A stretch of 64,000 bases of DNA from Actinomycetota bacterium (lineage in GTDB: Bacteria; Actinomycetota; Actinomycetes; Actinomycetales; Microbacteriaceae), in the NCBI GenBank assembly GCA_005778835.1, contig SXMG01000049.1, positions 1,746 through 65,745 on the forward strand, in the 5' to 3' direction. Below the pieces are notes generated by a model that had not been told where the DNA came from, did no database searches, and saw only the letters and a list, made by a program, of their open reading frames with translations. A program made the position numbers and the translations under genes. Positions 23,883 through 43,800 of this stretch are shown here, piece after piece (the stretch's first letter is position 1; each line of letters starts with the position of its first letter).

Positions 23883-23932
23883 AGGTTTGGGGGATACCCG
23901 CGTTCTGCGGCGCCCCTGTGAGGGAGTGCTGG

Positions 23933-25001: not shown

Positions 25002-26759
25002 ATGGCCCGCATGATCCCGCCGACGATCGGCGACGACGCCCCGCCGGGGGAGCACGCGGTGTTCGCGGCCCTGCAAGCCGCGCCCGACGACTGGGTCGTC
25101 TTCCACTCGCTCGAGATCGCGCAGCACGTCAGCCAGGTGCAGGGCGAGGCCGACTTCGCCGTCGTCGCGCCGGGGCACGGCGTGCTCGTCATCGAGGTGA
25201 AGTCGCACGAGAGCATTGAGGCCGACGGCGACGGACGCTGGCGCTACGGCAAGCGCGACTGGGTCACCCGCAGCCCCTTCGAGCAGGCGTCGGGGGCGCA
25301 GCACTCGATCATCGAGTTTCTCGAGTCGAGGGGCGCTGGCCCGAACGGGTATCCCATCTTTCACGCGGCGTGGCTCACGCAGTTGAGCAAGAGCAAGTTC
25401 AGCGCAGGAATCGGCTGGCACGAGTGGCAGCTACTCGACGCCGCCGATCTGGCGGGTGACAAGGCGCCCAGTGCGATCATCCGGACCCTGAACAAGGCCA
25501 GCGCGCACCTGGCCGAGACGATCAGCGGCTACCGCCGCGTCGAAGGCCAACCCGACCAAGCGCACACGCAAAGAATCCAAGAACTGCTGACCCCGCGCTT
25601 TCAGCTCGAGCTGAGCGCGAAAGAGCTGGCCCGCCGGCGCGAACACGAGCAGGCCACGTTCACGGCCGAGCAGGTCAAGATTCTCGACGTGGTCGGCAGC
25701 AATCCGCGGCTACTGGTCGAGGGTCCGGCGGGGTCGGGCAAGACGTGGGTGGCCGCCGAGGCCGCCCGACGCGCGGCCGAGCAGGGCAAGCGCACGCTCG
25801 TCGTCGTGTTCAACCGGCTCATCGAGGCGCGGCTGGCCGAACTGTGCGGTGAGGGCATCGAGGTGCGGCGCATCCACTCGCTGATGGCGCAGGTGGTCGA
25901 CCGTCACGCCGGCAAGAACGAGGCGCAGCGCAAGCTGCAGAGCGGACGCGTCGAGCGCGACTGGTACGACGTCACCCTGCCCGAGCAGGCGCTCGAGGCG
26001 GCGCTCGAGCTGGGGCCGCAGTACGACTATCTCGTCGTCGACGAGGCGCAAGATGTGGCGCTCGAGCAGTACCTCGACGTGCTCGACGCGCTCATGGTCG
26101 GTGGGCTCGCGCAGGCGCCGGTCTTCATCACCGGAGACTTCGACCACCAGGTGATCTACCGCCGCCACGGTGCTGTCGAGAGCGCCGCTGACGGCGCGGG
26201 CACCGATGAGGCACCGGATGCTCCGCCCACCCCGCGCGCGACTATCCTGCGCCGTGTGCCCGGACTCATGCAGTTGCGCCTGACCTCGAACGTGCGCACA
26301 ACCCCCGAGGTGGCGCGGTTCGTGGCCGAGCTCATCGGTGAGCCGACCCTCTACAGCGAGCACCGCCGCAGCGACGACGACCAGGTCTCGGTCGAGCGCC
26401 ACACCTTCACCACCATGGATGAGCAGCTGCGCCTGCTCGCCGACGCCGTCGAGCGCATCCTGTCGGAGCCGTTCACGGTGCGCGAGCTGGTGATTCTGTC
26501 GCCCTACGCCCGTGAGCGGTCGGCTGCCGGCCAGGCTCTCGCTGACCCGACCGCGGATGCCCGCCTCACGTCACGGCTCGGCACGGGCATCGAAGACACG
26601 ACGCGCATTCGGTGGGGGAGCATCCACGAGTTCAAGGGCCTCGAGGCGCCCGCAGTGATTCTGACCGACGTCGACCTGTCGAAGGGCTACCACCGCGACC
26701 TGCTCTACGTGGGGGCGTCGCGCGCAACCGATCGGCTTGTGGTGCTGGAGCAGAAGTAA
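25002..26759 (+). CDS. NERD nuclease + SF1 (UvrD-like) helicase fusion
   Basis: GEADF...VIEVKS; GPAGSGKT; DEAQD; NVRT; SIHEFKGLE; LYVGASRA. Confidence 0.88.
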   Translation: MARMIPPTIGDDAPPGEHAVFAALQAAPDDWVVFHSLEIAQHVSQVQGEADFAVVAPGHGVLVIEVKSHESIEADGDGRWRYGKRDWVTRSPFEQASGAQHSIIEFLESRGAGPNGYPIFHAAWLTQLSKSKFSAGIGWHEWQLLDAADLAGDKAPSAIIRTLNKASAHLAETISGYRRVEGQPDQAHTQRIQELLTPRFQLELSAKELARRREHEQATFTAEQVKILDVVGSNPRLLVEGPAGSGKTWVAAEAARRAAEQGKRTLVVVFNRLIEARLAELCGEGIEVRRIHSLMAQVVDRHAGKNEAQRKLQSGRVERDWYDVTLPEQALEAALELGPQYDYLVVDEAQDVALEQYLDVLDALMVGGLAQAPVFITGDFDHQVIYRRHGAVESAADGAGTDEAPDAPPTPRATILRRVPGLMQLRLTSNVRTTPEVARFVAELIGEPTLYSEHRRSDDDQVSVERHTFTTMDEQLRLLADAVERILSEPFTVRELVILSPYARERSAAGQALADPTADARLTSRLGTGIEDTTRIRWGSIHEFKGLEAPAVILTDVDLSKGYHRDLLYVGASRATDRLVVLEQK

Positions 26760-28627: not shown

Positions 28628-28822
28628 CGGATGCCCGCGCACCTCAGGCCTCGGCTTCGACATCCTCGACCCCACGCGCATGAGATTAGGGAGCATCTAC
28701 GAGTTCAGGGGTATTGAGTCGCCCGGGGCCATCCCGACCGACGTCGACCTGTCGAAGGAGTACCACCGCGATCTGCTCTATGTGGGGCGTCGCGCGCGAC
28801 CGATCGGCTTGTGGTGCTCGAA
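28628..28822 (+). pseudogene. Degenerate duplicate of the 3' end of the NERD-helicase gene (26554-26750)
   Basis: Reads GSIYEFRGIESP...TDVDLSKEYHRDLLYVG versus GSIHEFKGLEAP...TDVDLSKGYHRDLLYVG; 1-nt loss in the G-run after YVG; shared ACCGATCGGCTTGTGGTGCT. Confidence 0.85.
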
Positions 28823-28922
28823 TCTTCACCCTCAACCTTCTAGCCCAAAGCAGTCAGCGCCCTTCGCGGCGTCGAACTGAGGTTTGGCCAGGTCGCTCCG
28901 CAGACGACTCTAGGATGTGCGC

Positions 28923-30809
28923 ATGTCGTCTGTGTGGGTCGTTCTGGACACGAAGTCCGAAGTCGGTGCGCGTCGGGTAGGTCGAGTCGCGGAGGACGAT
29001 GCGATCGCTTCCCAGGCAACGGAGCTGACGGTTCAGTGGCCGGACGGAAACATCGAACGCCTGAAGATGTCGGCCTCGTACCGGAAACTCCGTCTCGACT
29101 CACTCAGCGCGATGGCGGAACTGATGCCAGATCAGCTGACTCGTGAGTTGGAGTCGTCGCCGCTCGTGTTCGCGCGCGCGTTGGTGGAGATGCCCAAGGC
29201 GCGCTTACGCGAGAAGGATCTGCTCGTGCTGGTTGCCACGCGCGGCAAGATCGAGAAGTCGGTAGTAGAAGCGGCGTGGAAGAAGCACCGAGCCGCGTTC
29301 GAGTCACTTCTTGAGGTGGATTTCGAGCAGACGGCTAGCGGGCCGAAGTACTACCTTCGCGCACCACTGGGCACCATTGATGTGCAAGGGGGGTCGACGG
29401 GGGAGGTACGCAAGGGAGAAGTATCTGCACCTGAACCCTCAGGGACAGCGAGAACTGAGGATCGGGATGTTTCGGGTGACGTGACCTCTCGCCTTGAAGA
29501 AAACCCCGTGCCCGCTTCAGGTGTCAGCAACCTTGCCGAGACTATGGACAATCGGCAAGACACCGCAGTAATCGTGGATGCACTATCGAGCAAGAGTCCC
29601 GTGCGCATAGACAAGCTGGACTTGGACGCTTGGTTCGCGTCGAAGGCACCGAGCAAGGCGATCGCAGAAGGTTCTGCTCGACTCGACGTTCTCCCTCATG
29701 ATGACGAGGGTTTCGTCGAAGCTGCTGGAAGGTACTCAATTCTGGTTGGACGGATCCTAAAGAGAAACGACGTGACCGTTTCCCCCGAAATTCTAGCGGG
29801 AGCGTTCGTGTCATTGTGGCGTAGCGGTCAGGACTCTCTCCGTCAGCGAGGCATGGATGCTCTGGAGGCTGCGATTGCTCGCGTCGAAGAGCCGTCCGAG
29901 TTCTTTGCGAGGGTAGATCAAGTAGCTATCCAGGCGGCGCTAGCAGAACTGCCCATTCGCGAATCTGGTCTGCGGGGCCGCTTTTTGCTCGTGGTTGCGC
30001 GAGCAGGCAAGTCACGAATCGAGGATGCCGCATGGTGGAGAGGACTCTCATGGGAGGACGTTTTGGAGGGCTCTTCGGGCCGGTTGTCGACGGTCTTGAC
30101 TACAAGTGATGTTCTCCTTCGGAGGGTCCGCGCCGTAGCTGACGAGCACGCGAGCCAGATTTCTACAAGACGTGGGCTGTTTTCGTTCTTGAGCGGCCCA
30201 CGCTTCGCAATCGAGCACATACCTCCCACTCGCGTTCGTGAGCTGTTTGATCGCGTGGGCCAACAGGACTCACTACTCGCCGGTTGGCATTCGGAGCTGT
30301 CGGCAAGCGCAGAACGAGAGGACCTGAATGATCGCCTCCAGGCTGCTCAAGCAGAGCTTGATCGAGTCTTGAAGGACGAGACGAATGCCAGCGCAGAGCT
30401 CAGTGCGTTGAGCAAACAACTCGAGAGCACGCAGCTGCAGTTGGAAGCTGCCCGAGTGGAGCTAACTGGGTTATCGGTTCGAGAACGTCGGCAGTTGAAT
30501 ATTGAAGCCGCGAAGACAATCGCACAGATCGCTGCGACCGTCGATGCCGAAGCACGTGAAACGGACCATGATGCGCTCACGCAAAAAGTCAACCGACTTT
30601 CCGGGAAGTTCGGGCTTCGCCCATCGGCAATGCGGGGGGAGTCGGTTGTATTCGACCCGGCGCTACACAACGCGCCTGGTACACGTCCCGAAGTTGAGGA
30701 GCTCGTGAATGTCGCACGTGCCGGGTACATCTGGGAGGACGGGGACGAACAGGTAGTCGTGCTCCCCGCCTTGGTGACTCGAGCGGGGAAGAGTGAGGGA
30801 AACGCGTAG
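28923..30809 (+). CDS. Large helical/coiled-coil protein with C-terminal GrpE-like domain
   Basis: Coiled coil then FGL...GESVVFDPALH...VNVARAGY...VVLPALV, matching the GrpE head; TAGGAT-N6-ATG. Confidence 0.7.
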   Translation: MSSVWVVLDTKSEVGARRVGRVAEDDAIASQATELTVQWPDGNIERLKMSASYRKLRLDSLSAMAELMPDQLTRELESSPLVFARALVEMPKARLREKDLLVLVATRGKIEKSVVEAAWKKHRAAFESLLEVDFEQTASGPKYYLRAPLGTIDVQGGSTGEVRKGEVSAPEPSGTARTEDRDVSGDVTSRLEENPVPASGVSNLAETMDNRQDTAVIVDALSSKSPVRIDKLDLDAWFASKAPSKAIAEGSARLDVLPHDDEGFVEAAGRYSILVGRILKRNDVTVSPEILAGAFVSLWRSGQDSLRQRGMDALEAAIARVEEPSEFFARVDQVAIQAALAELPIRESGLRGRFLLVVARAGKSRIEDAAWWRGLSWEDVLEGSSGRLSTVLTTSDVLLRRVRAVADEHASQISTRRGLFSFLSGPRFAIEHIPPTRVRELFDRVGQQDSLLAGWHSELSASAEREDLNDRLQAAQAELDRVLKDETNASAELSALSKQLESTQLQLEAARVELTGLSVRERRQLNIEAAKTIAQIAATVDAEARETDHDALTQKVNRLSGKFGLRPSAMRGESVVFDPALHNAPGTRPEVEELVNVARAGYIWEDGDEQVVVLPALVTRAGKSEGNA

Positions 30810-32501
30810 ATGAAGGGTTTGGACTTCGGAACCACGACGTCGCTCATCAGCGAGTCAAGCCCGGCCCGAACCGCGGTTACGCCAATCGGGCGCACAGACA
30901 AGTGGTTGCCGTCGCTCCTTGCGCGATCGGGGTCACAGTGGAGCGCGGGGGACGACGCCCTGGTCTTCCCTGAGGAGCAGATCATCCGTTCAGCGAAACG
31001 GGCCATAACGCGTCGACGCCAGACGTTCTCAGTTTTCGATGGTTCGTCGCACGTTGAAGTAGATGCCGACGAAGTGATCAGGGAGATCCTTCGTGCGCTC
31101 GTCGTGGTCGCCGAGGACGCATTCGTATCGCTCAATGATGAATCCGAGGTGAGGCTGGGCTGCCCAGCCATGTGGGAGGGGGATCAGCGGCGTCGTCTCA
31201 TTCGATTGGCTCAGGAAGCGGGCATCTCGGTGAGCGAGAACACGGTCATTGACGAGCCGATCGCGGCCGGCATCGCCTGGGTCAATCAACGCACGCGCGA
31301 AGGCAGTCAGGTGACGGGGAAGCTCTTGGTTTTCGACATGGGGGGCGGCACTCTCGACGTGGCGGTGCTCCACGTTGACGCCAGACCAACTGAGCTTGGC
31401 AAGAAGCGTGTTCCGCCGGTCGTATCTGTTCAATCTTCCATCGGTGTGGACGAGGCAGGGGACTCTCTAGACGATGCCATCGAGCGTGACTTCGTCGATC
31501 GCCTGAGCGAACGCGGATTCGACGTGGATGGCCATCCCGCGCATGCGGAGCTGACCGGATGGCTCCGACGAGCTGCTCGCGCAGCCAAAGTCGAGCTCTC
31601 GGCTACGAGAGAGACAACTGTGGTTGTTGGCCACCCGAACATCGATGTGCCGACGTTCTCATACAGTCGAGATGAGCTGGAAACCGCTTTTCGACCCCAA
31701 CTCGATCGAGCTGTCGAAGTAGTGAGGCTTGCCCTGCGAGCAGCTCTAATGGCGCAAGTCAAGTCTCCAACCGATGAGCGGACGATGTCACCGGCGGCAG
31801 CGAGACAGTACTCCGACGACAAGCTTGCCGATGGGGTCCAGTACGTCGTGCTCGCCGGCGGGATGGCTCACATCCCTGCTGTGCGTGAGCGCCTGGGCGA
31901 GATCTTCGGTGGTGACCGCATCTGGGTCGGAGTCGACGAGAGTTCGGGACGCACCGGTATGGACAGCACCGAGATGATCGCTCTGGGGCTTTCGTACCAT
32001 GAGGACAGTGACCGTATGAACCTTCACCGACCGGGCTTCGACTTCGTTCTGGAGTGGGACGACGGTGCAAGTGGTGCGCGGCGAGAAGTCATCGTGTACG
32101 AGGCCTACAGCCCTCTGTACACGCCGGAACAGGTTTTCAATACAAACAGCACCAAGTACACGTGGAAGCCTCGCGACGCTGACGGCGTTCCGCGCCGGGG
32201 GGAGGGGCTGCTCACCGTTCGCGCGCTGTCAGGCGAGCGTCTTGACTTCACCTACGAAGGAATCAGACTGCCGGGCATAAGGATGGACTTTGGCACTGGT
32301 GACTTCACGATAAGTCTCGAGCCAAACGGCAGGGTGTTCTGGCGTGATGGCGGGGGTCGAGTAGGCGCGGTACGGGTGGCCCAGTGGCCGGTGATCCGCG
32401 GCAACAAGCAGGAGACTATTGCCATCAAGGACATTGACGACGAACGGTCAGGCAGGTGGTCGGTTGATAGCCTTCCGTGGCACCTCAAGCCCTACGACTG
32501 A
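30810..32501 (+). CDS. Divergent Hsp70-family ATPase
   Basis: GLDFGTTTS, IDEPIAA, VFDMGGGTLDV, AKVELS, LAGGMAHIPAV; ATG directly follows the upstream stop. Confidence 0.88.
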   Translation: MKGLDFGTTTSLISESSPARTAVTPIGRTDKWLPSLLARSGSQWSAGDDALVFPEEQIIRSAKRAITRRRQTFSVFDGSSHVEVDADEVIREILRALVVVAEDAFVSLNDESEVRLGCPAMWEGDQRRRLIRLAQEAGISVSENTVIDEPIAAGIAWVNQRTREGSQVTGKLLVFDMGGGTLDVAVLHVDARPTELGKKRVPPVVSVQSSIGVDEAGDSLDDAIERDFVDRLSERGFDVDGHPAHAELTGWLRRAARAAKVELSATRETTVVVGHPNIDVPTFSYSRDELETAFRPQLDRAVEVVRLALRAALMAQVKSPTDERTMSPAAARQYSDDKLADGVQYVVLAGGMAHIPAVRERLGEIFGGDRIWVGVDESSGRTGMDSTEMIALGLSYHEDSDRMNLHRPGFDFVLEWDDGASGARREVIVYEAYSPLYTPEQVFNTNSTKYTWKPRDADGVPRRGEGLLTVRALSGERLDFTYEGIRLPGIRMDFGTGDFTISLEPNGRVFWRDGGGRVGAVRVAQWPVIRGNKQETIAIKDIDDERSGRWSVDSLPWHLKPYD

Positions 32502-32508
32502 CGCCCGC

Positions 32509-35500
32509 CTAGTCAGTCGGCGACGCAATGAGTAGAACCGCGACATTCTCCACGCTCATTGCCACGTCGCGCTTCGCGTCGTATCGATGCGAGATCTCCC
32601 CCATCCGAGTTTCGAGGTTCCTAATCTGACCGGTCATCATTCGCTCGATCTGAACCGCGGTACCGTTCGCCACTGCGGTGCGGAGGCGCAAGAGAGCCCT
32701 GTCCCGCTGAATCTTAAGTGACTTCGCTTCAGAAGCAACCCGCGATGCGATCAGAGCTTCGTTCTCCTGTCGACGCTCCGTACGTTCCTTCGCGCGGCGC
32801 GTAGACACCATACGGAGCAGTTCTGCTCGTCGCCTGATGACTCCATCTGATGCCGCTTCGATGATGGACGTTTGAAGCGTGCCTTCGGCAAGCGCCGTCA
32901 TGAGTGCGTCGGACATGCCGTCCTCCGGCATGCCGGTTTCCAGGTCTACGGCGGTAACCCAGAGTTCCTGCTTGTCCCTGAGGCCGCCCGAGGTGCGAAC
33001 TATGTCAACCGTTGCCACAAAAGCCTGGCCTGCCGGAAGGCCTTCGACCGTCACCCTGCCGTACCGAGCGAGTTGTTCGCTCTTCTCTGCCAAGAGATCC
33101 ACGGCGAATCTGATCAGGGGGTGCCGAGCAGTCACGAGTTCGACGCGTGTAACCGTGGCGTGCTGTGGATTGAAGGTGATGGTGATGGGAGTGCCGTCGC
33201 GGATCATCCCGAGCAACTTCGCGACCCCGTGCATCGTCCCGCTCTTCGTGTGTCGGTACGCGTTGAGCGCGGCCGATAGGGCATGCGAGCCATGAATCGT
33301 CCAGAGTTCGGGGTCAGACGTGGCTTCAAGTCTCGAGTCCTTGGCGCTCAGGGCAGTCGTGAGTAGTGCGCGGAGCTCGGCAGCACCGACGTATCTTCCG
33401 TTAGTGGGGCCGGCGTCACTAAGTCCTTCGACATCGAGCAAAGCCAGTGAGGTCAGCATTCCGCTTTGCTCTTCGAGGTGTTTCGCGCGCTCGCGCTCTT
33501 GAGATACCGCGACGTTGAACTGATCTATCGCACGAATCTTCTGGTCTTCACTGAGGTGTGGGTTGAGAATCGTCTTGTTCAGTTCAGAGAAGCCGCCCCG
33601 CATGATCGGCTCGAGATCACCGATCGAGTTCTCGAATACTCCGATACGGGCGTAGAGACGTCCGAAGATCTTTGACTCGATCGTGTCAGGCGTGAACATG
33701 TTGAAGACGTGGATCTTGTCACTGAGCTGTCCGAACCGATCGAGTCGACCGATTCGTTGTTCGACCTGCATTGGGTTCCACGGGAGGTCATAGTTGATGA
33801 GGACATTGCAGAACTCGAAGTCGAGGCCTTCCGATCCCACTTGGTTCGCAATAAGTACGTCGATTTCGCCGGCGCGGAAACGATCGATGACGTGCTGCCG
33901 CTCATCCATCGGAATCCCACCATGTAACACAGCAGTGCGACACTCGGCACCGAGTGCATCGGCGAGATACTCAACGGTGCCGCGGAAGAAAGAGAAGATC
34001 AAGGCCTGAGGCATCTCGTTCTGCCGTGCGAGCCGGAGGCGTTGGGTTAAGGCCTGAAGCTTCGAATCGTGATCGAGCCGGGTCTGCAAGACCAGTTCGA
34101 TGAGGTCATCGTCGACCTCGATGTCGGTGTCGAGCAGTGCCTCTTCCCCTAACTCAGTCTGGGCAGCCTGCTCGGTGATGGCCTCGTCTGAGTCGCTGAG
34201 GCTCCATCCGTTTCGGTCAGCGAGCCGTTGCTGTGCGACGACCAAGCTGCTGCAGGCCTGCCGCAGAGGCATCTGCATCGCGAACCCTAGGGGAGCATTT
34301 GCCGCACGGGCTCGCCGGAAAGCGTGTTCTTCGATGGCTGAGTAGAGGTCGCGTTCCGTCGAGGACCACGCCACGTTGACTTCTTCGACCTCTCGCATCG
34401 CCTTCTTGCCGGGCACATCGATCTTTCTGGTGCGGGTCACGATGGCGCCAAGAGTGTTGAGCTCGGAGGCGTATCGCTTCACCCTCGCAATGTCGTCAGT
34501 CGACGGCACCTCCTCATCGAGAAGGATCTGCTCGAGCTTCTCGAACGTCGGCCTACCGGCAAGTGCTCGACCGTGGTCGCTCTGCTTGACGGCGGCGAGT
34601 TCGGCGAGAGCATCTTGTTTCGAACGGTGCATGGGGTCGGCCATGATGCGCATGACGGCGTTCAAGTGCTTGTTGGGTTCGAGCTGACTCGAGAAGACTG
34701 CCGGATCAGCGAATGCTCCTGGCTCGAGCAAGTTCACGAGGGTGTAGAGATCGTGCGTGCCGAGGTTGAGCGGAGTCGCCGATAGGAAGACGACGTGATC
34801 GGCTAAAGCGCCGAGCACTGATCCGACGTCGTGTGACCGCCTGCCCGGGTTTCGCATCGAGTGCGCTTCGTCCACGATCACCAGATCAAGGTGAGGAGAG
34901 AGTTCAACGAACTGCTCTAGCAGGTCTTTCGCGCTACGCAACCTCTCGAGCGAAATCACCCCAACAATGTCTGCGTCTTTGCCGTCCCGAACCTCATCGA
35001 GGAATCGCGCGAGGTCTCCTGAAGACAACTCGGGGAGGGGGCGCATGAATCGACGATCCATCTCTTGGCGCCACTTCACTCGAAGTGATGCGGGCACGAC
35101 AACGATTGCGCGATTGACGGGATTCCGTTGCTCGAGTTCGGTCCAGATGAGGCCCGCCTCGATGGTCTTGCCCAGACCGACCTCATCGGCGATGAGTAGC
35201 CTTCCCGACTCGCTGTTGAGCATCTTGAGAACCGGTATGAACTGATACGGCTTAAACGTCGTCTTAGTCGCGGCATACGAGTACAAGGTGTCGCTAAGCG
35301 GATACGCCAGCTTCACCCACGACAGAGTGCGCGCGATGTCCTCAGCCTCAGCTGGCCCTTGAGTGATCCAGAAATCCGGGTCTCGAATGTCGCCCTCGAG
35401 GAGGGTGAGGTCATCGACGTCGAAGTTTTCGATGACGCCGTTGACGTCGATGTCAGCGGTATGCCCGTCGGCGAGCCGACGAACACGCACGACTCGACCC

Positions 35501-35925
35501 CATCCCGTTCGGCTAGGGATGTCAACAAGATCCCCAGCATGGACGGGGCTGTCGCCAAGTAGGGGTTGTGCGTCATCCCAATCGTCTTCATGGGTGTAGA
35601 CCGCCTCACCGAGATGATTGGAGTTGTACGCGAGGCGGTCATCTTGCGGTTCGGCGGGATCCTTTCCTCCGTTGACCCAGACGCTGTGCCACTCGCCACC
35701 ACGCATGAATGCATAGATGCCGTTATGCAGTCGCTGCAATCGGCGCGTAGACCGACTCACTCTCGCGTCGTGTGCTCCCACAGCTGCAATCTGAGCAGCG
35801 ATTTCATCAGTTTCGCGACCGATCAGCAACGACGTACTCGGTTTCAACGCTGCCACCCACCTTGTGTCAGCACTGAAGGGCCGGTACGCGCAGTCGGCCT
35901 CGGCGGGTAACGAAGAGCTGCTCAT
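32509..35925 (-). CDS. SNF2 helicase/ATPase, RapA/DrmD-like
   Basis: LLIADEVGLGKT, DEAH, LSATP, GSEGLDF, NYDLPWNPMQVEQRIGRLDRFGQ; SH3/Tudor-like segment before the ATPase; coiled-coil tail. Confidence 0.9.
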   Translation of the reverse strand: MSSSSLPAEADCAYRPFSADTRWVAALKPSTSLLIGRETDEIAAQIAAVGAHDARVSRSTRRLQRLHNGIYAFMRGGEWHSVWVNGGKDPAEPQDDRLAYNSNHLGEAVYTHEDDWDDAQPLLGDSPVHAGDLVDIPSRTGWGRVVRVRRLADGHTADIDVNGVIENFDVDDLTLLEGDIRDPDFWITQGPAEAEDIARTLSWVKLAYPLSDTLYSYAATKTTFKPYQFIPVLKMLNSESGRLLIADEVGLGKTIEAGLIWTELEQRNPVNRAIVVVPASLRVKWRQEMDRRFMRPLPELSSGDLARFLDEVRDGKDADIVGVISLERLRSAKDLLEQFVELSPHLDLVIVDEAHSMRNPGRRSHDVGSVLGALADHVVFLSATPLNLGTHDLYTLVNLLEPGAFADPAVFSSQLEPNKHLNAVMRIMADPMHRSKQDALAELAAVKQSDHGRALAGRPTFEKLEQILLDEEVPSTDDIARVKRYASELNTLGAIVTRTRKIDVPGKKAMREVEEVNVAWSSTERDLYSAIEEHAFRRARAANAPLGFAMQMPLRQACSSLVVAQQRLADRNGWSLSDSDEAITEQAAQTELGEEALLDTDIEVDDDLIELVLQTRLDHDSKLQALTQRLRLARQNEMPQALIFSFFRGTVEYLADALGAECRTAVLHGGIPMDERQHVIDRFRAGEIDVLIANQVGSEGLDFEFCNVLINYDLPWNPMQVEQRIGRLDRFGQLSDKIHVFNMFTPDTIESKIFGRLYARIGVFENSIGDLEPIMRGGFSELNKTILNPHLSEDQKIRAIDQFNVAVSQERERAKHLEEQSGMLTSLALLDVEGLSDAGPTNGRYVGAAELRALLTTALSAKDSRLEATSDPELWTIHGSHALSAALNAYRHTKSGTMHGVAKLLGMIRDGTPITITFNPQHATVTRVELVTARHPLIRFAVDLLAEKSEQLARYGRVTVEGLPAGQAFVATVDIVRTSGGLRDKQELWVTAVDLETGMPEDGMSDALMTALAEGTLQTSIIEAASDGVIRRRAELLRMVSTRRAKERTERRQENEALIASRVASEAKSLKIQRDRALLRLRTAVANGTAVQIERMMTGQIRNLETRMGEISHRYDAKRDVAMSVENVAVLLIASPTD

Positions 35926-37130
35926 CGGTGGGCCCCCTCCACGATCTCGGGAATCATGTCGGCTGTCAGCTCGACGGGTCGTGATGCGTGGTCGAGCAGC
36001 TTCCAGCCGATCCCGAGCTGGTCACGCTGGAAGTCTCTGGCGATGGCGGGCAGCTTTCGACCATCACGCCACGCTTGAGCTATCGCCTTCGAGTCTGCAC
36101 CGCTGTAGGTCTTTCCGTGCTTCGGCGCGGATGGGTCGTCGACTATCCCCTGGGGCGCGAGCAGTAGGGAAATCAGTCGCAGAGCGACCTGCTTCTGGTC
36201 CACTCGGAGTGTTTCCGCAGTGGCACTGAGATTTCTCGTCGTCAAGTAGGCGTTCAGCAGCGCGGCGTCTTCGGCGGCATTCCACTGTTTGTCTTCGTCG
36301 TCGAAGACGCCGACTCCACTGGTCTTCGTGGCGGTGGTGCGTGTGACGATCGGAGGCTTGGGTGCGGCCTTCGGCGTGGACTTCAGGGGGAGCTTAGGCG
36401 GAAGCTTCGACTCCAAGGGGCTCGCCTTCCACGAAAGCGGCGTGCCCTTGGACGTTGGTGCAGCTTTCGCCGCATCCTCCGCCGCTGGCTCCGTGGGCCG
36501 AGCGAGCAACGTGCTGATTTCTGCGCGCAGCTTGAGCATCTCGAGCTTCAAGTCGTCAACTTCACGAAGAGCCGCGTCACGCTCTGCCTGGGCGGCGAGG
36601 AGGCGAGCGGTCGCTCTGTCGACCCAATCCTCAGCTTCAGTGATATCCGCATCACGATTCGCGACGCCCTTGACCCCTTTGGCGAGCCTTGCCCTCAGGT
36701 CCGCGCACTCCTGATGCAAGGCGAGATTATGCAGCTCGACTCCGCGCAGCTTGTCTTGTAGCTCCGTGATCGCGGCGGCGCTCGACTGGTCGACACCCAA
36801 TCGAACCTGTTCGCGCGTCACGCTGGCGGCCGCACTCGCGGATCTCTCGGCGGTCTCAACCCGCGTTTGGAGATCTTCGCGAGCAGCCTGCTCCTGCAAG
36901 AGGAGAGATTGCAGCGATGCGTTCTCCGTCTTGAGCCCCTCGACCATGGTGTTCATCGCCGACGCTGTCGCAGGGTCGACCCGTGCAGCGCTGGCTTGGG
37001 GGCGTCGAGCCAGGCCGTTGATTTTGGCCAGGACGACCACAGCCACTACGAAAACCACTGCGAGCAGCAAGAGAGTGATTGTCGCGATCAGAGCGATGAG
37101 CGGAAGCCACCCGTTTGTGATGGACGACAA
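35922..37130 (-). CDS. Membrane-anchored coiled-coil protein with two Myb/SANT-like HTH repeats
   Basis: N-terminal TM, long coiled coil, P/K/T linker, QWNAAEDAALL...ALRL and HGKTYSGADS...IARDFQR...WKL; 4-nt overlap with SNF2; GGGAGG SD. Confidence 0.7.
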   Translation of the reverse strand: MSSITNGWLPLIALIATITLLLLAVVFVVAVVVLAKINGLARRPQASAARVDPATASAMNTMVEGLKTENASLQSLLLQEQAAREDLQTRVETAERSASAAASVTREQVRLGVDQSSAAAITELQDKLRGVELHNLALHQECADLRARLAKGVKGVANRDADITEAEDWVDRATARLLAAQAERDAALREVDDLKLEMLKLRAEISTLLARPTEPAAEDAAKAAPTSKGTPLSWKASPLESKLPPKLPLKSTPKAAPKPPIVTRTTATKTSGVGVFDDEDKQWNAAEDAALLNAYLTTRNLSATAETLRVDQKQVALRLISLLLAPQGIVDDPSAPKHGKTYSGADSKAIAQAWRDGRKLPAIARDFQRDQLGIGWKLLDHASRPVELTADMIPEIVEGAHR

Positions 37131-37257
37131 TTGACCTCCCTGATGGTCGAACTCTGCTCACCATAGTTGAGCAAGCAGACACGGCAACAGCGACGAGGCG
37201 GCGCCTGTCCGCCGCCGTTCGCCTACTCGACCGCTTCTCAGCAATAGGGTGGGCGCT

Positions 37258-37857
37258 ATGACCTCCGAGCCCATCGTCGAGCTCCGCGGCCTCACTCTGA
37301 GCATTGACCCCGGTGAGCACACGATCGAGGGAGCGGGCTTGTCGGCCCGCGAAGAGGTCGTCGTCGAGGGGCGCGCCCGCGTCTCGACCGTGAAGACCGT
37401 AGACGGCTTTCACGCGACGATCGGCGTCTGCACCTGGCCGACCGGCGACGAAGGCTACGAACACGACATACGCCTGCTCGACTTCTGGACCGGCGCCGAC
37501 GACTACCGCCGACTCGAACGCGCCGGCAAGATGTCGCTCGCGCAGTCCGGCGATCGCCGGGTAGGCATCCTGCGCGCCATGGCGTACGGCGAGCGCGAGT
37601 GGCCGACCCTGCAGACTGTCGGCTGGGAGTCCCTCGACCGTCTGGCGGGCACGGACGTGGCGCACCTGCTGCGTGATCACGGGGGTGTGCCCGGTTCGGT
37701 CATCGAGCTGAACCAGAACGCGAAGCGCTTCAAGGATGCGCCAGCCTTCTCCATCGGCGACGACCCGACGGCGGCCTTCGTCGCATTCGCCGTCACGCGC
37801 GTCATGCCGATCGCCCGAGGCTTCGGCAAGCCCGGCCTGGAGCCCCTGCACGCATGA
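37258..37857 (+). CDS. Hypothetical protein
   Basis: GC-rich codons, TAGGGT-N7-ATG, ATGA-coupled to the next gene; no family recognised. Confidence 0.65.
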   Translation: MTSEPIVELRGLTLSIDPGEHTIEGAGLSAREEVVVEGRARVSTVKTVDGFHATIGVCTWPTGDEGYEHDIRLLDFWTGADDYRRLERAGKMSLAQSGDRRVGILRAMAYGEREWPTLQTVGWESLDRLAGTDVAHLLRDHGGVPGSVIELNQNAKRFKDAPAFSIGDDPTAAFVAFAVTRVMPIARGFGKPGLEPLHA

Positions 37858-39065
37858 CGCAGATCACGGTCGAGATGCCGGAGCGCGACAGCTACGGCGA
37901 GATCATGAAGGGCTACTTCTCCCTGATGCGCGGGTTCGGTATCGAGCTGGGGATGCGCTGCGACGCCGTACTCTCAGAACTCGACGGCGTGAACTGGTGG
38001 GCAGAACTGGTGTCCCAACGCCGCGATGAGCAGGAGAACCGCTGGAAGGGCTCGGTCAACCGGTTCGACCCCGGCCTCATGCTGCCCGAGTACGTCTGGA
38101 GACTCGATTCGCCACTCGCCAAGGCCCTGTCATCGAAACCCGACTCACGCGCTATAGCCAAGAAGATCCAGATCGCCCGCAATAGCTGGGTGCACTTCAC
38201 CACGGCGCCCGGCCCGCTCGAGCTTCAAGATGTGGCGACTCTGGTGAAGCAGTTCGCGAGCCTGAACGACTTGAAGATCAGCACTATGGCGACGCGCATG
38301 ATCAACCGCCTGGAGCGCATCCGCAACGGGAGGTACCAGCCGTTCAACGATGTGATCGCCAGGTGGCGGATCGACAACCCGTCGACTCCGGCTCCTGCAG
38401 CGAGCCCCGCGGCTGACCAGACGATGCCGGGCGTCGAGCAGCCTCCCCAGCCGGACCCGGGCGTCGAGCAGCCTCCCCAGCCGGACCCGGCCGCCGAGAC
38501 CATCGAGGTCGAGGCTCCCGCGATCGAACGCCGACCGCCGATCGGCGGCCGCTGGACGGGCGAGATCCCGGCCGGCCGCTTCATCCCAAGCGCGATCGGC
38601 GACCTGGTCGACCCGGGCAGGGGCGACGGCCTCCGTGCCCGTGTGGACGCCGACCTCTGGCCGCGCAAACGGCGTCTGTGGCTCGCGGCCCGCCCGCTCG
38701 GCGGCGTATGGGTCGACGAGCTCGACGGCGCAGTCGGCGGCTATGTCGACAACGTGCCGCGCCTTCTCGGCTACCTCGGTGACGAGCCCGACGACGGCCT
38801 CGCCCGCGGGTTCCTCACCCCGCGCTACTACGAGGTGTCGGCCGGCCGCATCGTTGACCTCGACTCCGGACTCGCACTCGAAGACGTCGTCTCTGCCGAC
38901 GCTCGCGAGGCGGCACAAGACACCCAGAAGACCGTGGCCGACTCAACACCCCAGCGTGCGGGCCTTCGCCTCAGCACCTACGGTGACCTCGTCGCGATCA
39001 CCGACGATGGTGTAATGCGCGTGGCCGTAGTTGAGCCCGCGCACTGGTTTCCGGGGCACCTCTAG
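37854..39065 (+). CDS. Swt1-like HEPN domain protein with Pro-rich linker and unknown C-terminal domain
   Basis: IARNSWVHF (RxxxxH) in a helical N-terminal domain. Confidence 0.7.
   Translation: MTQITVEMPERDSYGEIMKGYFSLMRGFGIELGMRCDAVLSELDGVNWWAELVSQRRDEQENRWKGSVNRFDPGLMLPEYVWRLDSPLAKALSSKPDSRAIAKKIQIARNSWVHFTTAPGPLELQDVATLVKQFASLNDLKISTMATRMINRLERIRNGRYQPFNDVIARWRIDNPSTPAPAASPAADQTMPGVEQPPQPDPGVEQPPQPDPAAETIEVEAPAIERRPPIGGRWTGEIPAGRFIPSAIGDLVDPGRGDGLRARVDADLWPRKRRLWLAARPLGGVWVDELDGAVGGYVDNVPRLLGYLGDEPDDGLARGFLTPRYYEVSAGRIVDLDSGLALEDVVSADAREAAQDTQKTVADSTPQRAGLRLSTYGDLVAITDDGVMRVAVVEPAHWFPGHL
38431..38490 (+). repeat. Perfect 30-bp tandem duplication in a coding linker
   Basis: GCGTCGAGCAGCCTCCCCAGCCGGACCCGG x2; the protein repeats PGVEQPPQPD. 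Confidence 0.95.
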
Positions 39066-39290
39066 AGACTTTGGCGTGCCGAGCTCGCTTGACCACAGCT
39101 TCTCCTGGTTTCTGAGCTTTGCTTGTGGGTCAGCCTGCGACCTGCTTTACTAAACGTACTTGCTTCCGGAAGGCGGCGAGGAGCACCACCCGTTGGCTCC
39201 TGAAAAGGGGCTGCTACACCAACACTGCAAGTCCGCAAGGGCTTCTGGAAACGCCAAGACGACAAGATTCGCTCGTCGTCGAAGACTCAG

Positions 39291-39320
39291 AAGCCGACCT
39301 AGGTCGGCTTTTTCGTTTTC
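39291..39320 (+). terminator. Intrinsic-terminator-like palindrome plus T-tract upstream of the AIPR gene
   Basis: Perfect palindrome AAGCCGACCTAGGTCGGCTT followed by TTTCGTTTT. Confidence 0.6.
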
Positions 39321-39357
39321 TGGGCCAGGAGTTCTTCCTTCATCAGAGGAGAACACA

Positions 39358-40758
39358 TTGACCATCACCAACGCTTCGGCACCCACAACCATCACGGTCA
39401 AGTTCGAACAGATCGCTTCACAGACTGCCGACGGCATTACCCGGATCTCAGGATTCGTTCGTGCCCGCCACTTTGTGGCCATCATCGACGCACTCGATCT
39501 CGAGGCGAACCCACGTGCAGCGCGCGTGGGCCGCGTCACCAACGCGATCATCGAATCGATCCAGACCACGCCCAAAGAGTTCCCCTTCAAGACGAAGGGC
39601 GTTCTGCTCGGCGCTACGAACTACGAACTTCTTGATCGCGGTCGAGTACGGGCTGTATTCGTTGAGCGCGACAACGAGGGAATCCTCGATGGCGGCCACA
39701 ACACGATGGCGATCGGTCTCCACATTCTGCGTGTCGCGGGTGTGCCCGAAGCCAAGGTTCGAAAGGTCAAGGACTGGGCGTCTTTTCGCGCACTCTGGAA
39801 CGCCGAGTCTGACACGGTCAAGCAGTTCCGCGGAGAGCTTGCGGACTTCGGCAAGGCTGAGCCAGCGCAAGACGACGAACTCGCCTTTCTTGTTCCGGTC
39901 GAGCTCATTGTCCCGAGTGACCCCGACGACGTCGTAATCGTCCATGACTTCCAGTCTTCGATCCTGGAGATCTGCGCCGCTCGCAACAACAACGCCGAAC
40001 TCGTAGTCGCCGGCAAGTCGAACCAGGCGGGTTTCTACGAACACCTGAAAACTCTCCTGCCCCAGGAGATCAGCGAGCGAATCGAGTGGAAGACGGGCGA
40101 GGGAGGAGCGGTCAAGGTTTCGGACCTGATCGCACTCACCTGGATCCCGCTCAGTCTTCTCGAGCCGATGCCGACCGACGAGGGCGTGAAGCCAGTCGTC
40201 GCGCCCATCCCGCAGAACCTCTACCGCAATAAGGGAGAGTGCCTGACGAAGTTTGACGATCTCATGCGCCTCGACGCGGTCACCACCGAAAGCGGCGGTA
40301 AGTTCGAGCTTCACAACCAGCGTGTCTACAGCGCGCTCAAGATCGCCGCGAATATGCCGGAAGTGTTCGACCTCATCGAAGAGATCTTTCCCGACGCGTA
40401 CAACAAGGCTGATGGCAGGTACGGCCGCATCGGGGCCGTCAAGAAGATGAACCAGAGCACGCGTTCGAAGACGTCGAACTTCGAAGGTCGGGCTATCCCC
40501 GTGGCAAGCCCTGACGGCTTTCTCTACCCGGTCGTCTATGGAGTTCGGGAACTCATGAAGCAGGCGAGTGACGGCAAGATCGAGTGGAAGGTCGAGCCCC
40601 TCCAATTCGTGCGTGACCACATCCTCGACATCGCCGAGGCATACAAGGCAGTGGTGTCGGCTCTGGACTGGGACCCCGTCCGTGTCGGCAAGGCTCCGCT
40701 GGCTTATCAGGTTGTCACCACCGCGTACCAGGCGGCGCTCGCGAAGTCAGCACGTTGA
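39358..40758 (+). CDS. AIPR-like (ParB-fold) protein
   Basis: ANPR, FPFKTKGVLL, GILDGGHNT, ARNNN; SD AGAGGAG before TTG 39358. Confidence 0.68.
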   Translation: MTITNASAPTTITVKFEQIASQTADGITRISGFVRARHFVAIIDALDLEANPRAARVGRVTNAIIESIQTTPKEFPFKTKGVLLGATNYELLDRGRVRAVFVERDNEGILDGGHNTMAIGLHILRVAGVPEAKVRKVKDWASFRALWNAESDTVKQFRGELADFGKAEPAQDDELAFLVPVELIVPSDPDDVVIVHDFQSSILEICAARNNNAELVVAGKSNQAGFYEHLKTLLPQEISERIEWKTGEGGAVKVSDLIALTWIPLSLLEPMPTDEGVKPVVAPIPQNLYRNKGECLTKFDDLMRLDAVTTESGGKFELHNQRVYSALKIAANMPEVFDLIEEIFPDAYNKADGRYGRIGAVKKMNQSTRSKTSNFEGRAIPVASPDGFLYPVVYGVRELMKQASDGKIEWKVEPLQFVRDHILDIAEAYKAVVSALDWDPVRVGKAPLAYQVVTTAYQAALAKSAR

Positions 40759-40843
40759 GCCGCCGCTCGCGTGCCCGGCGCAAAGTGTCCAATGTCGGTC
40801 GTCCCCGCAACCCTGAAGAACTGCTTTCTGGCCGGAGAGGAGC

Positions 40844-43800
40844 ATGACCATGGGTGACGCGCTGCAGGTGAAGGGCACCACGAACGTGCCGTGGAACGAC
40901 GTCAAGGTCGACGGGGCGACCGCCCAGTCGGTGCACTACGGACGCGACGAGTCGGGCGTCGGCGAAGTGCAGGTCGCCGTCGCGACGATCACCGGCAAGC
41001 CGACGAAGGCGCTCATGAACGAGCTCTGGAAGATCCGCGGGGTCAAGAGCGCCATGCCCGTGGTCGTCGCCGCGGTCGCCCCCGAGGGCGTCTACATCTA
41101 CAGCGGCGGCACGGATGCCCTGCCGCTCGGCCCGCTGCCCCACGCGCAGGCTGCTCTGCGGCTGCAGGCGGTGCTCGACGAGCCCGATGGCCTCGCCGCT
41201 GCGAATCGACTGCGTGCGGTGGAGGATTCTTACCAGACCATCGGACTCGGCGGCTTCGCCAACCACTACCTGTTCGCGAGCTACCACCTGAAGCGCGACG
41301 TGCCTCGGCGCGCCGACTGGGATGCCGCGGGGGAGCGCGCCGAGCCGATGCTCTCCCGCCGCGGCGCCGAGCTCATCTCGTCGCTGGGCTTCACGAGCGA
41401 GCCGGCCCCAGGTGGTGCCCTCGTGCTCCGAGGCACCACCGGCCAGCGCCGGGCCATCGCTGTGCTGCTCGACGAGTCGGAGAACTTCGATCAGAAGAGC
41501 GCCCGTCACCAGCTGTCGCCGGTCGCCCACGGCCTCGAGCTCGCCCGTCGCGAGGAGGTCGCGTGGGTCGTGCTGCTGCGCCAGAGCACCCTGCGGCTCT
41601 ACCCCGGCCGCGACGGCGTCGGCGTCGGACAGCGCGGGCAGTCTGAGACCTACTTCGAGCTCGACCTCGCGATGGTCGATCCCGATTTCGCGGCCCTCCT
41701 GCCGCTGATCTTCTCGGCCGAAGCGCTCGAGCCGGGCGGCTCTGCCGACGAGATCCTCGCCGGGTCGGGCCGCTACGCCGCCGACCTCGGCTCGCGTCTG
41801 CGCGACCGCGTCTACCTCGGTGTCGTGCCGCGGCTCTCGATCGCCGTCGCCGAACGCCTCCCGCAGCTGGGCGTGACGGTCGACGCCGAGGGCCTGCAGG
41901 TCGCCTACAAGCTGAGCATGCGCATCCTGTTCCGACTGCTCTTCCAGGCCTACGGCGAGGCGACCGAGCTGTTGCCGGCGGGCCGCAACGAGCACTACGA
42001 CGCCAACAGTCTGCGGGCCTTCGTCGAGCGCGAACTGTCGACCGACCCGGCTGACTTCGCCGCCGAGGCGTCGTCGATCTGGCGCGATCTGGTGCAGGTG
42101 TGGGATGCGATCGCCCACGGCAACCCGCGCTGGGAGGTTCCCGCCTACGGCGGCAGTCTCTTCGACCCCACGACCGACGAGGGCCAGCTGCTTGAGCGCT
42201 TGCAACTGCCCGACAACGTGCTCGGCCCAGCCCTGCAGGCCATGCTCATCGAGCGGACGGAAGATGACTCGCTCGGTGCGGTCGATTTCCGCTCTCTGCA
42301 GGTGCGTGAGTTCGGCACCATCTACGAGGGCCTCCTCGAGTCGTCGCTCTCGCTCGCCGAGACCGACCTGACCACTGACAAGAACGGCGTCTACATCCCG
42401 GCGCCTGAGGGTGCCGAGCCGGAGGTGCGCGCGGGCGAGCCCTACTTCCACTCCGCTTCCGGTGAGCGCAAGGCGACAGGCTCGTACTACACGCCGAAGA
42501 TCGTCGTCGACCACCTTATTGAGCGCTCGGTCGAGCCTGCGCTCGACGCGCACCTCGCACGCGTGAAGGCGCTCATGGACGAGGGCCGTGAGCGAGAGGC
42601 CGGGGACCTGTTCTTCGACTTCCGCGTCGCCGATCTCGCGATGGGCTCCGCGCACTTCCTGGTCGCAGCGGTCGACAAGATCGAGCGCGGCATGCGCGAC
42701 TTCCTCACCGCTACGCCGGTGCCCTCGGTGCGCGCCGAGCTGCAGCGCCTTGCCGAGAAGGCGCGCGAGGCGCTCGGTGCCGACGCCCAGGCGGCCGAGG
42801 CGATCACCGAGGCGCAGCTGCTGCGGCGCCAGGTGGCGCGCCGCTGCATCTACGGTCTCGACATCAATCCGCTCGCGGTCGAGTTGTCGCGCCTCGCCCT
42901 CTGGATCCACACCTTCGTGCCCGGCCTGCCGATGTCGAGCCTCGACCACGGACTCGTGCTCGCGAACTCGCTCACGGGCATCGGCACGGTCGACGAGGCG
43001 ATGGATGCTCTAAACGCGAAGGCGCTGTTCGAAGACCTCATCCGCGAGCCGCTGGCGGCAGCGCACGAGCTCCTCAAGGACTACGCCCGCGCCTCCGAGG
43101 CAGACAAGTCGGAGGTCGCGCGTGGCTCCGAAGTGCTCGCGAAGGCAGTTGAGGCTGCAGCACCCGCACGGGCAATCTTCGACGTCGCCCTCGCCAAGCG
43201 GCTCGGCCTGCCCGTCGGCGAGGCCTGGGACGCTCAGCAGTTCATCGAGCTCGCCGCCGACCCCCGCATCCGCGAGGCGGTCGACTCACTGAGCCCGGCG
43301 CACCTGCCGTACCTGTTCCCCGAGGTGTTCCTCCGCGACAACCCTGGCTTCGACGCCCTTGTCGGCAACCCGCCGTGGGAGAAGGTCAAGCTCGAGGAGC
43401 ACCAGTGGTGGGGCCTGCGCATCCCGAAGCTCCGCAGCATGCCGCAAAAGGAGAAGAACGCAGCGCTCGAGGCGTTCCGAGCCGCGCGCCCTGATCTCGT
43501 GGCTCAGTACGAGCGGGAGCGTGCCGCGACGGATGCGTTCCGCTCGATCCTCTTGCGAGGCCCTTATCCCGGTCTTGGTTCAGGAGACCCAGACCTGTAC
43601 CAGGCTTTCGCGTGGCGGTTCTGGCGTTTGGCTCGTAGTCACGGACGCACGGCGGTAGTGATGCCTCGAGGTGCTTTGTCCGGATCTGCTTTGCAGTCGT
43701 GGCGTCGCGATGTGCTGGAGCACGGTGCCTTCTCCGACGTCTGCTTCTTGCTCAACAACCAGAACTGGGTTTTTCCGAACGTCCATCCTCAGTACACCGT

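What the first reader, a model, noticed from the sequence alone, without database searches (positions are those of the whole stretch)
28923..37130. Candidate undescribed four-gene defence module: GrpE-tailed protein + Hsp70 facing SNF2 ATPase + membrane coiled-coil Myb protein
Seen: two tightly coupled gene pairs (0-nt gap; 4-nt overlap) converge with only 7 nt between their stops. The block is visibly AT-richer than the flanking genome and sits among nuclease, TA, HEPN and RM genes. Knowledge: RapA/DrmD/ZorD-type SNF2 ATPases occur in DISARM and Zorya; I know no catalogued system with this four-gene composition. Inference: a co-acquired anti-phage unit in which a private Hsp70/GrpE switch assembles or restrains a membrane-tethered DNA-binding sensor and a translocase.
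Basis: partly seen in the sequence, partly recalled or inferred. Interest (0 to 1): 0.85.

Follow-up and report, generated by a model that had tools for sequence, protein, structure and literature searches.

The report
Hsp70-gated SNF2 motor defence module
Three genes that travel together across many actinobacteria, often beside anti-virus genes, encode an unusual Hsp70 chaperone ATPase, a partner with a GrpE-type tail and a RapA-like DNA motor, and they likely form an undescribed chaperone-controlled anti-phage system, while the fourth, membrane-anchored gene is likely a recent add-on in one lineage.

Summary
The conserved unit is three genes, not four. A (winged helix, helical solenoid, GrpE tail) lies directly upstream of the lidless Hsp70 B in 77 of 78 loci. 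The RapA/DrmD-like SNF2 C faces B in 56 of 78, across 14 Actinomycetota families. D was in 0 of 78. D is coupled to C only in one terminal clade close to this genome (one contig seen directly, seven contig-length matches). Loci with C have a defence neighbour in 29 of 54 cases, loci without C in 1 of 21. The same chromosomal slot holds CBASS, IetAS, Hma/Mza-like or RM genes in congeners. No catalogued system or paper found matches, and no nuclease, methylase or J-domain was detected. Best reading: a chaperone-gated translocase for anti-phage defence, possibly acting on RNA polymerase; the sister SNF2 clade pairs with a HelD-like protein and A's winged helix resembles the delta subunit. Function is untested.

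The parts
28923..30809 (+). Gene A (core): N-terminal beta-barrel (res 1-57), winged helix (57-148), disordered linker, ARM/HEAT-like helical solenoid (208-460), coiled coil and GrpE beta tail (461-625)
   Evidence: AF2 model pLDDT 88.6; GrpE by profile E 1.3e-9 and fold Z 8.0, rmsd 3.2, 153 aligned; winged helix best match RNAP delta N-domain Z 8.9, rmsd 2.5, 81 aligned; 181 representatives at E<=0.001
30810..32501 (+). Gene B (core): Hsp70-type ATPase with intact nucleotide-binding motifs and an all-beta C-terminal domain, no helical lid
   Evidence: Pfam HSP70 E 1.9e-18; model pTM 0.89; Z 40.2, rmsd 2.6, 358 aligned to BiP; catalytic residues invariant in 71 of 71 aligned members
32509..35925 (-). 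Gene C (core): RapA/DrmD-architecture SNF2 ATPase, convergent on B
   Evidence: Pfam SNF2 and Helicase_C; PADLOC DrmD 464 bits; NCBIfam DrmD 322 and RapA 184 bits, both under cut-off; best solved relative RapA E 5e-50; faces B in 56 of 78 loci
35922..37130 (-). Gene D (lineage-restricted accessory): single N-terminal membrane helix, coiled coil, Pro-rich linker, conserved C-terminal helical domain predicted to be HTH-like
   Evidence: Hydropathy peak 3.18 at residue 15; 17 homologues; 0 of 78 loci; coupled to C on contig L132
28628..28821 (+). 81% direct repeat of the 3' end of the NERD-helicase gene (26554-26749); marks the left edge of the cassette, about 100 nt before A
   Evidence: Self-blastn, and 4 copies between cargo genes in G1067, 2 in G1092

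Best explanation
Genes A, B and C are a conserved, horizontally spread three-gene module that likely acts in anti-phage defence, in which the lidless Hsp70 (B), predicted to be recharged by the GrpE tail of A, would hold or release the SNF2 motor (C), and the freed motor would strip protein complexes, most likely RNA polymerase, from DNA. Shown: the genes, their folds and motifs, their co-inheritance and their location in defence hotspots. Inferred: A dimerises like GrpE and serves B as its own exchange factor (about 0.8); the trio works as one unit (about 0.8); its job is defence (about 0.6); the target is the transcription machinery rather than DNA alone (about 0.3). With no nuclease or methylase detected, the output would be blocked transcription or growth arrest rather than restriction. 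D is likely a later recruit, transcribed with C in one clade, which may tether DNA or the motor to the membrane but is not needed elsewhere.
For: A upstream of B in 77 of 78 loci (the other is cut by a contig end); C convergent on B in 56 of 78, stops within -92 to +80 nt in 55 of 56; 14 named families. Reverse test: 3 of 3 complete SNF2 hits over 700 bits in 400 genomes of the order lie beside A and B. Where C is missing, A is usually shrunken: 19 of 22 such loci lack both the N-terminal barrel and the solenoid. Defence neighbour within three genes: 29 of 54 loci with C against 1 of 21 without; narrower RM/BREX/Hhe/OLD/Wadjet/DISARM-like set 26 against 0. Same slot in congeners carries Hma plus Mza-like genes, CBASS, IetAS plus a type III methylase, or a type II methylase (5 of 30 congeners examined). 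Patchy: the trio in 3 of 400 genomes of the order, B in 3 of 400 of the class. B's ATPase motifs invariant; the genome has its own DnaK pieces and GrpE elsewhere. For an RNA polymerase target: C's closest solved relative is RapA; its sister clade (joint support 96) is followed by a HelD/HelR-like gene; three delta-subunit structures are among the top 17 folds for A; delta and HelD recycle RNAP together (PMC7749165, abstract).
Against: No experiment. 25 of 54 loci with C have no recognised defence neighbour. The control group is mostly one or two clades, the label list was chosen after seeing the Pfam output, and neighbours were annotated through one representative per cluster, so the Fisher p of 6e-5 overstates. 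22 of 78 A-B pairs lack C and sit among housekeeping genes, so Hsp70 plus GrpE can persist without the motor; two short A-like genes occur without B (G181, G076). RapA architecture is shared by BrxHII and related helicases that work with methylases on DNA (PMC12839542, section 27), so it does not prove an RNAP target. The delta match is tied within about 1.5 Z of histone H5 and FOXP3 winged helices and is not seen by sequence. No J-domain partner is conserved, so how B's ATPase is triggered is unknown. Convergent genes need separate promoters and need not co-operate.
Confidence: 0.5

Rival explanations
1. The trio is an accessory to neighbouring restriction systems: C translocates on DNA for a nuclease encoded in trans (as DrmD or BrxHII do), A's winged helix reads DNA, and B assembles or disassembles the complex. 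It has no activity alone.
For: Commonest neighbours are GmrSD (11), type I RM subunits (17) and DUF4011 proteins (4); C's best PADLOC model is DrmD; short A-like genes lie directly upstream of GmrSD-RAMA genes in G181 and G076; no nuclease detected in the trio.
Against: No neighbour family is constant: the most frequent clusters occur in 10 of 78 loci, and 25 of 54 loci have no defence neighbour.
Confidence: 0.2
2. A mobile stress or transcription-recycling module, not defence: a RapA-like motor with a delta-like factor and a private chaperone frees stalled RNA polymerase, and it accumulates in islands only because it is mobile.
For: RapA, HelD and delta resemblances; 22 A-B pairs in housekeeping surroundings; the B tree largely follows host families.
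Against: Defence enrichment is specific to loci with C (29 of 54 against 1 of 21); the slot is interchangeable with known defence systems; occurrence near 1% of genomes.
Confidence: 0.2
3. One reading: an obligate four-gene unit in which Hsp70/GrpE restrains a membrane-tethered DNA sensor (D) and the translocase.
For: D precedes C with the same 4-nt overlap on contig L132 at 53% identity; 7 exact contig-length matches between D and C relatives, and A, C and D relatives all on an 8601-nt contig.
Against: D in 0 of 78 loci; D-linked C proteins form one terminal clade at 75-80% identity; D-like domains also occur apart from the trio, beside other island genes or fused to HATPase-sigma70 and YqaJ proteins.
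Confidence: 0.07
4. Two unrelated units (A-B and D-C) that met by chance in an island.
For: Opposite strands; A-B exists without C in 22 of 78 loci.
Against: Tail-to-tail B/C junction kept in 55 of 56 loci over 14 families at 31-51% B identity; the C proteins beside A-B form one side of a branch (support 94).
Confidence: 0.03

Closest known systems
DnaK-DnaJ-GrpE chaperone system (PDB 1DKG, 3A6M; PMC8215388, passages read)
   Same: Hsp70 nucleotide-binding fold with intact motifs; GrpE-type coiled coil and beta tail encoded next to it.
   Different: B lacks the helical lid and scores 73 bits against a DnaK cut-off of 822; GrpE is fused to a winged helix and a solenoid; no J-protein; linked to a SNF2 motor; rare and mobile.
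DISARM DrmD, BREX type 3 BrxHII, Hma (RapA-architecture SNF2 defence helicases; PMC12839542 section 27 read)
   Same: SNF2 core with an N-terminal barrel and RapA-like C-terminal region, in defence islands.
   Different: No methylase, DrmA/B/C, BrxC/PglZ or DUF499 partner travels with C; partners are an Hsp70 and a GrpE fusion; true DrmD proteins branch separately.
GAP1-N2 GTPase-centred conflict systems (Kaur et al. 2020, PMC7159879, passages read)
   Same: Actinobacterial conflict loci that carry Hsp70 plus GrpE.
   Different: Those are built on TRAFAC GTPases and include a DnaJ or TPR-fused FNIII protein; no GTPase or DnaJ is conserved here, and no SNF2 is described with their Hsp70.
Type III CoCoNuT CnuD (Bell et al. 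2024, PMC11090510, passages read)
   Same: Hsp70-like domain inside a predicted defence system.
   Different: CnuD has degenerate ATPase motifs, HEAT repeats and McrB/C partners, and the paper has no GrpE; B's motifs are invariant and no McrBC is linked.
RapA and HelD-delta RNA polymerase recycling factors (PMC7749165 abstract; PMC8666675 search listing)
   Same: C resembles RapA; the sister clade pairs with a HelD-like protein; A's winged helix resembles the delta N-domain.
   Different: All scores are far under family cut-offs; these are housekeeping factors without an Hsp70; RNAP binding is untested here.

Membership tests
Hsp70 superfamily (B) | Actin-like nucleotide-binding domain with phosphate-1, catalytic Lys/Glu, DxGGGT and adenosine motifs | tested here: met
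   Pfam over cut-off; fold Z 40; D5, G7, T8, T10, K63, E149, D176, G178-T181, D183, G350-G351 invariant in 71 of 71
Canonical DnaK | Score over the DnaK equivalog cut-off and an alpha-helical lid | tested here: not met
   73 bits against 822; no long helix after residue 394 in the model
Canonical DnaK | Substrate-binding beta-sandwich | tested here: inconclusive
   Residues 411-541 are all-beta; full-length alignments to ATP-state Hsp70s are loose (rmsd 7-12); the domain was not folded alone
Canonical DnaK system | J-domain co-chaperone in the unit | tested here: not met
   HPD in 2 of 46 A, 3 of 71 B, 3 of 46 C, 0 of 18 D; no DnaJ family among 295 neighbour representatives
GrpE (A, C-terminal part) | Long helix, helical bundle and beta domain homologous to GrpE | tested here: met
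   Profile E 1.3e-9; Z 8.0, rmsd 3.2, 153 of 168 aligned; Pfam cut-off itself not reached (best 17.6 of 25.8 bits)
GrpE (A, C-terminal part) | Dimerises and accelerates ADP release from its Hsp70 | not testable with these tools
   Inferred from homology and adjacency in 77 of 78 loci
DISARM | DrmD over cut-off, with DrmA, DrmB, DrmC and a methylase in one operon | tested here: not met
   322 bits against 610; no DrmB or DrmC model hit among 22 window proteins scanned; true DrmD clade separate
BREX type 3 / BR / Hma systems | Helicase linked to BrxC or DUF499 ATPase, methylase, PglZ | tested here: not met
   No such family is conserved among neighbours
Zorya | ZorA/ZorB membrane motor with ZorD | tested here: not met
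   A and D have no PADLOC hit; C matches ZorD at only 67 bits
GAP1-N2 Hsp70-GrpE systems | One or two TRAFAC GTPases with associated GAP1 proteins | tested here: not met
   No GTPase cluster recurs beside the module; definition from PMC7159879 passages
Type III CoCoNuT | McrB GTPase and McrC-like partners; degenerate Hsp70 | tested here: not met
   One McrC neighbour in 54 loci; B motifs intact; definition from PMC11090510 passages
PADLOC candidate PDC-M61 | Strong match to M61B together with the system's other gene(s) | tested here: inconclusive
   Only a weak partial match of B to M61B (E 2e-5; 32 of 71 members, best 2e-8); no M61 hit in A, C or D; the composition of M61 could not be read
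RNAP delta N-domain / HARE-HTH (name recalled, not from a call) | Delta-type winged helix, distinct from other winged helices | tested here: inconclusive
   Best fold match Z 8.9, rmsd 2.5, 81 aligned; H5 and FOXP3 at Z 7.5 and 7.3; no sequence-profile hit
Myb-like domain (D) | Myb/SANT three-helix repeat detectable by profile or fold | tested here: inconclusive
   No Myb family among the Pfam rows shown for 18 members (25 of 46 families shown); ESM feature hits to Myb/GcrA clusters at 0.79-0.80, a lead only

The most novel reading that the evidence does not exclude
A chaperone-gated anti-phage machine aimed at RNA polymerase: a delta-like winged helix on a GrpE scaffold docks a private Hsp70 on transcription complexes, and on infection the Hsp70 switch unleashes a RapA-like motor that strips polymerase from DNA and shuts transcription down; a sister system does the same with a HelD-like partner, and one freshwater lineage has tethered the machine to the membrane through gene D.
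Probability: 0.22. Interest if true: 0.9.

Novelty: categorically new. Interest (0 to 1): 0.68.

Why it matters
No system in the libraries searched, and none in the papers found, combines an ATPase-intact Hsp70, its own GrpE and a SNF2 translocase without a nuclease or methylase. If it protects, it shows a chaperone cycle used as the switch of an immune motor, and it offers a natural Hsp70 that works without a lid or J-protein. It is testable at once: many carriers are cultured Streptomyces, Arthrobacter, Cellulomonas and Micromonospora strains, and clean ATPase mutants exist for both motors. The sister pairing of the same SNF2 clade with a HelD-like protein suggests that polymerase-recycling factors have been recruited for defence more than once.

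Tried and rejected
Complex prediction of A(1-152) with C(1-800): no answer (runs 0.00, 0.53, 0.00); not evidence either way, and other interfaces were not tried. No RNA holder listed among sequencing runs. Sigma-70 promoter scan: 0 found, 1.4 expected; terminators at chance level. B not found in plasmid or phage collections, although one locus is a Streptomyces plasmid. No viral fold match for A at E<=0.001. B and C share no profile similarity. A's N-terminal barrel was not matched by any fold search, since it was not folded alone; 'SH3/Tudor-like' is my reading of five strands. The DnaJ-NERD gene at 22138 was considered as the missing J-protein and dropped: it is 6 kb away, common in congeners lacking the block and not seen beside other loci. 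The metagenome scan for D gave only 2 loci. One contig in run X2 joins 28822 to 40813, skipping the block, but with a 52-nt side it is only a hint. The careful tree of B did not finish; the quick tree was used. Ten literature searches found no description of the trio; the library lacks most subscription papers, and I opened no supplements, so large candidate tables from prediction papers may list these families.
Full report
Observation. Their GC is 0.59-0.63 against 0.693 for the genome. The flanks hold a NucS-like nuclease, a Swt1-like HEPN, an AIPR-like gene, a type IIG RM enzyme, a PLD-SNF2, a NERD helicase and DarT. Contigs from two other studies bridge the A/B, B/C and C/D junctions at near identity, so the order is real.

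Anatomy of A. The single sequence has no Pfam, PADLOC or NCBIfam hit, but 181 representatives are related. The AlphaFold model (pLDDT 88.6) shows a five-stranded N-terminal barrel, a winged helix, a disordered linker, a helical solenoid, a long helix and a beta tail. The last 160 residues are GrpE by profile (E 1.3e-9) and by fold (Z 8.0, rmsd 3.2, 153 aligned). The winged helix matches the RNA polymerase delta N-domain best (Z 8.9, rmsd 2.5, 81 aligned; two more delta structures in the top 17), with histone H5 and FOXP3 close behind. The solenoid resembles armadillo repeats at Z 8-9, which for helical repeats may mean only a common arrangement.

Anatomy of B, C and D. B is an Hsp70 whose catalytic residues are invariant in 71 of 71 aligned members (8 partial or motif-variant rows and one long row were left out of that alignment). 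After the nucleotide-binding domain it has an all-beta domain and no helical lid. It is far under the DnaK cut-off, and the genome has DnaK pieces and a GrpE elsewhere. No J-domain motif is conserved in any of the four families. C is a SNF2 ATPase with conserved motifs, nearest to RapA among solved structures and to DrmD among defence models, but under the curated cut-offs. D has one N-terminal hydrophobic helix, a coiled coil and a conserved C-terminal domain; 'Myb' is a lead only.

Co-occurrence. A scan of GTDB with a B alignment found 100 relatives; the best 80 were kept, as 78 loci, all Actinomycetota (the other 20 were not seen). A lies upstream of B in 77 of 78. C faces B in 56 of 78, with stops within -92 to +80 nt in 55 of those 56, across 14 named families. 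From C's side, 3 of 3 complete hits over 700 bits in 400 genomes of the order lie beside A-B; of two further partial hits, one is cut by its contig end and one is truncated and has no A-B nearby. These handles probably overlap with loci, so I do not add the counts. Of the 22 loci without C, 19 have an A reduced to winged helix plus GrpE or less; two long-A loci are followed by a different SNF2 (ZorD-like, true DrmD) and one is nested in the clade with C; three have under 3.5 kb of DNA after B. The module is rare: 3 of 400 genomes of the order, B in 3 of 400 of the class, A in 1 of 400 of the phylum sample.

Gene D. A D profile finds nothing in the 78 loci. Yet D is not a chance neighbour. On metagenome contig L132 a 53% identical D is followed by the start of C with the same 4-nt overlap. 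Seven of 19 contig lengths recorded for D relatives equal one of 28 recorded for close C relatives, and A, C and D relatives all map to an 8601-nt contig, about the size of the block. This is inference from lengths; B was not checked on those contigs. The D-linked C proteins form one terminal clade with the window's C (75-80% identity, support 94). D's C-terminal domain also occurs apart from the trio, beside other island genes and fused to HATPase-sigma70 and YqaJ proteins. So D is most likely a recent recruit to an older three-gene core.

Defence context. Up to three called genes on each side were annotated through 295 cluster representatives. A defence-type neighbour occurs in 29 of 54 loci with C and 1 of 21 without (loci with fewer than two neighbours dropped: 2 and 1); with a narrower label set 26 against 0. 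Kinship and my post hoc labels weaken the statistic, and 25 of 54 loci have no such neighbour. Locally, none of the listed matches in 30 congeners covers the block apart from short SNF2-motif pieces (41 weak matches unlisted). In five congeners examined, the slot next to the NucS-like gene holds Hma plus Mza-like genes, CBASS, IetAS plus a type III methylase, a type II methylase, or the same downstream genes without the block. The block starts about 100 nt after a degenerate repeat of the NERD gene's 3' end that separates cargo cassettes in other congeners.

Mechanism. Shown: an ATPase-intact, lidless Hsp70 always paired with a GrpE fused to a winged helix, and a SNF2 motor kept tail to tail with them in defence hotspots, with no nuclease, methylase or J-protein detected. 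Inferred from established Hsp70 biochemistry: A sets B's nucleotide state, so B can act as a clamp with few clients. I infer that C, or a complex C acts on, is the client, because A loses its extra domains where C is lost. Three weak and partly independent hints point to RNA polymerase as the target: the RapA architecture of C; the delta-like fold in A; and the sister clade of C (joint support 96), whose 8 sampled members are each followed by a gene family whose best matches are HelD/HelR (5 of 5 tested, all under cut-off). Delta and HelD recycle polymerase together in Bacillus (PMC7749165, abstract). Against this, BrxHII and related defence helicases share RapA's architecture and work with methylases (PMC12839542, section 27). 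I put defence by the trio at about 0.5-0.6 and the polymerase target at about 0.3.

Comparison and novelty. Membership tests fail for DnaK, DISARM, BREX-3/Hma, Zorya, GAP1-N2 and CoCoNuT; PDC-M61 is inconclusive. Hsp70 in conflict systems has precedent (PMC7159879 and PMC11090510, passages read), but not with a SNF2 motor and a winged-helix GrpE. Ten searches found no description; no supplements were opened. Earlier notes of this scan report similar trios in other genomes; these are unchecked AI notes, were read after my own counts, and are not counted as support. Verdict: real, conserved and apparently undescribed three-gene module with a lineage-specific fourth gene; probably defensive; mechanism open. 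Interest 0.68.

Noticed in passing
L024:8380-13679, L025, L026, L027, L028, L029, L134, L144: A sister two-gene module: the SNF2 clade closest to C followed in the same direction by a 640-690 aa HelD/HelR-like SF1 ATPase, in island surroundings. Possibly a second undescribed system built from RNA polymerase recycling factors.
   Followed up: partly
window 26554-26749 and 28628-28821; L139 (4 copies), L141 (2 copies): The 3' end of the NERD-helicase gene is repeated between cargo cassettes, suggesting a hotspot that gains defence cassettes by recombination at this sequence.
   Followed up: partly
L045, L048, L080-L082, L084, L087-L089, L096, L099, L101, L102, L113, L114, L116: Short winged helix-GrpE plus Hsp70 pairs without the SNF2, among housekeeping genes; duplicated in tandem in L045 and L048. 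Function unexplained.
   Followed up: partly
L010:9626-10432 and L011:9503-10201: Short A-like genes without an Hsp70 in 20 kb, each directly upstream of a GmrSD-RAMA type IV restriction gene.
   Followed up: no
L137:9461-12811, L138:10169-13480, L136:943-2655: D's C-terminal domain is fused to HATPase plus sigma70 proteins and to a YqaJ-like nuclease, so it is a mobile domain of island proteins.
   Followed up: no
window 37249-39065; L042, L111, L135, L139: An unknown 200-aa gene and the Swt1-like HEPN gene recur as a pair in several genomes, with or without the block; candidate two-gene system.
   Followed up: no
window 23918-24718: DarT-like ADP-ribosyltransferase with no DarG recognised among the proteins scanned; common in congeners.
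   Followed up: no
window 40844-48270: Type IIG RM enzyme with an overlapping PLD-SNF2 helicase, a separate unit also present in G1067 and G1076.
   Followed up: no
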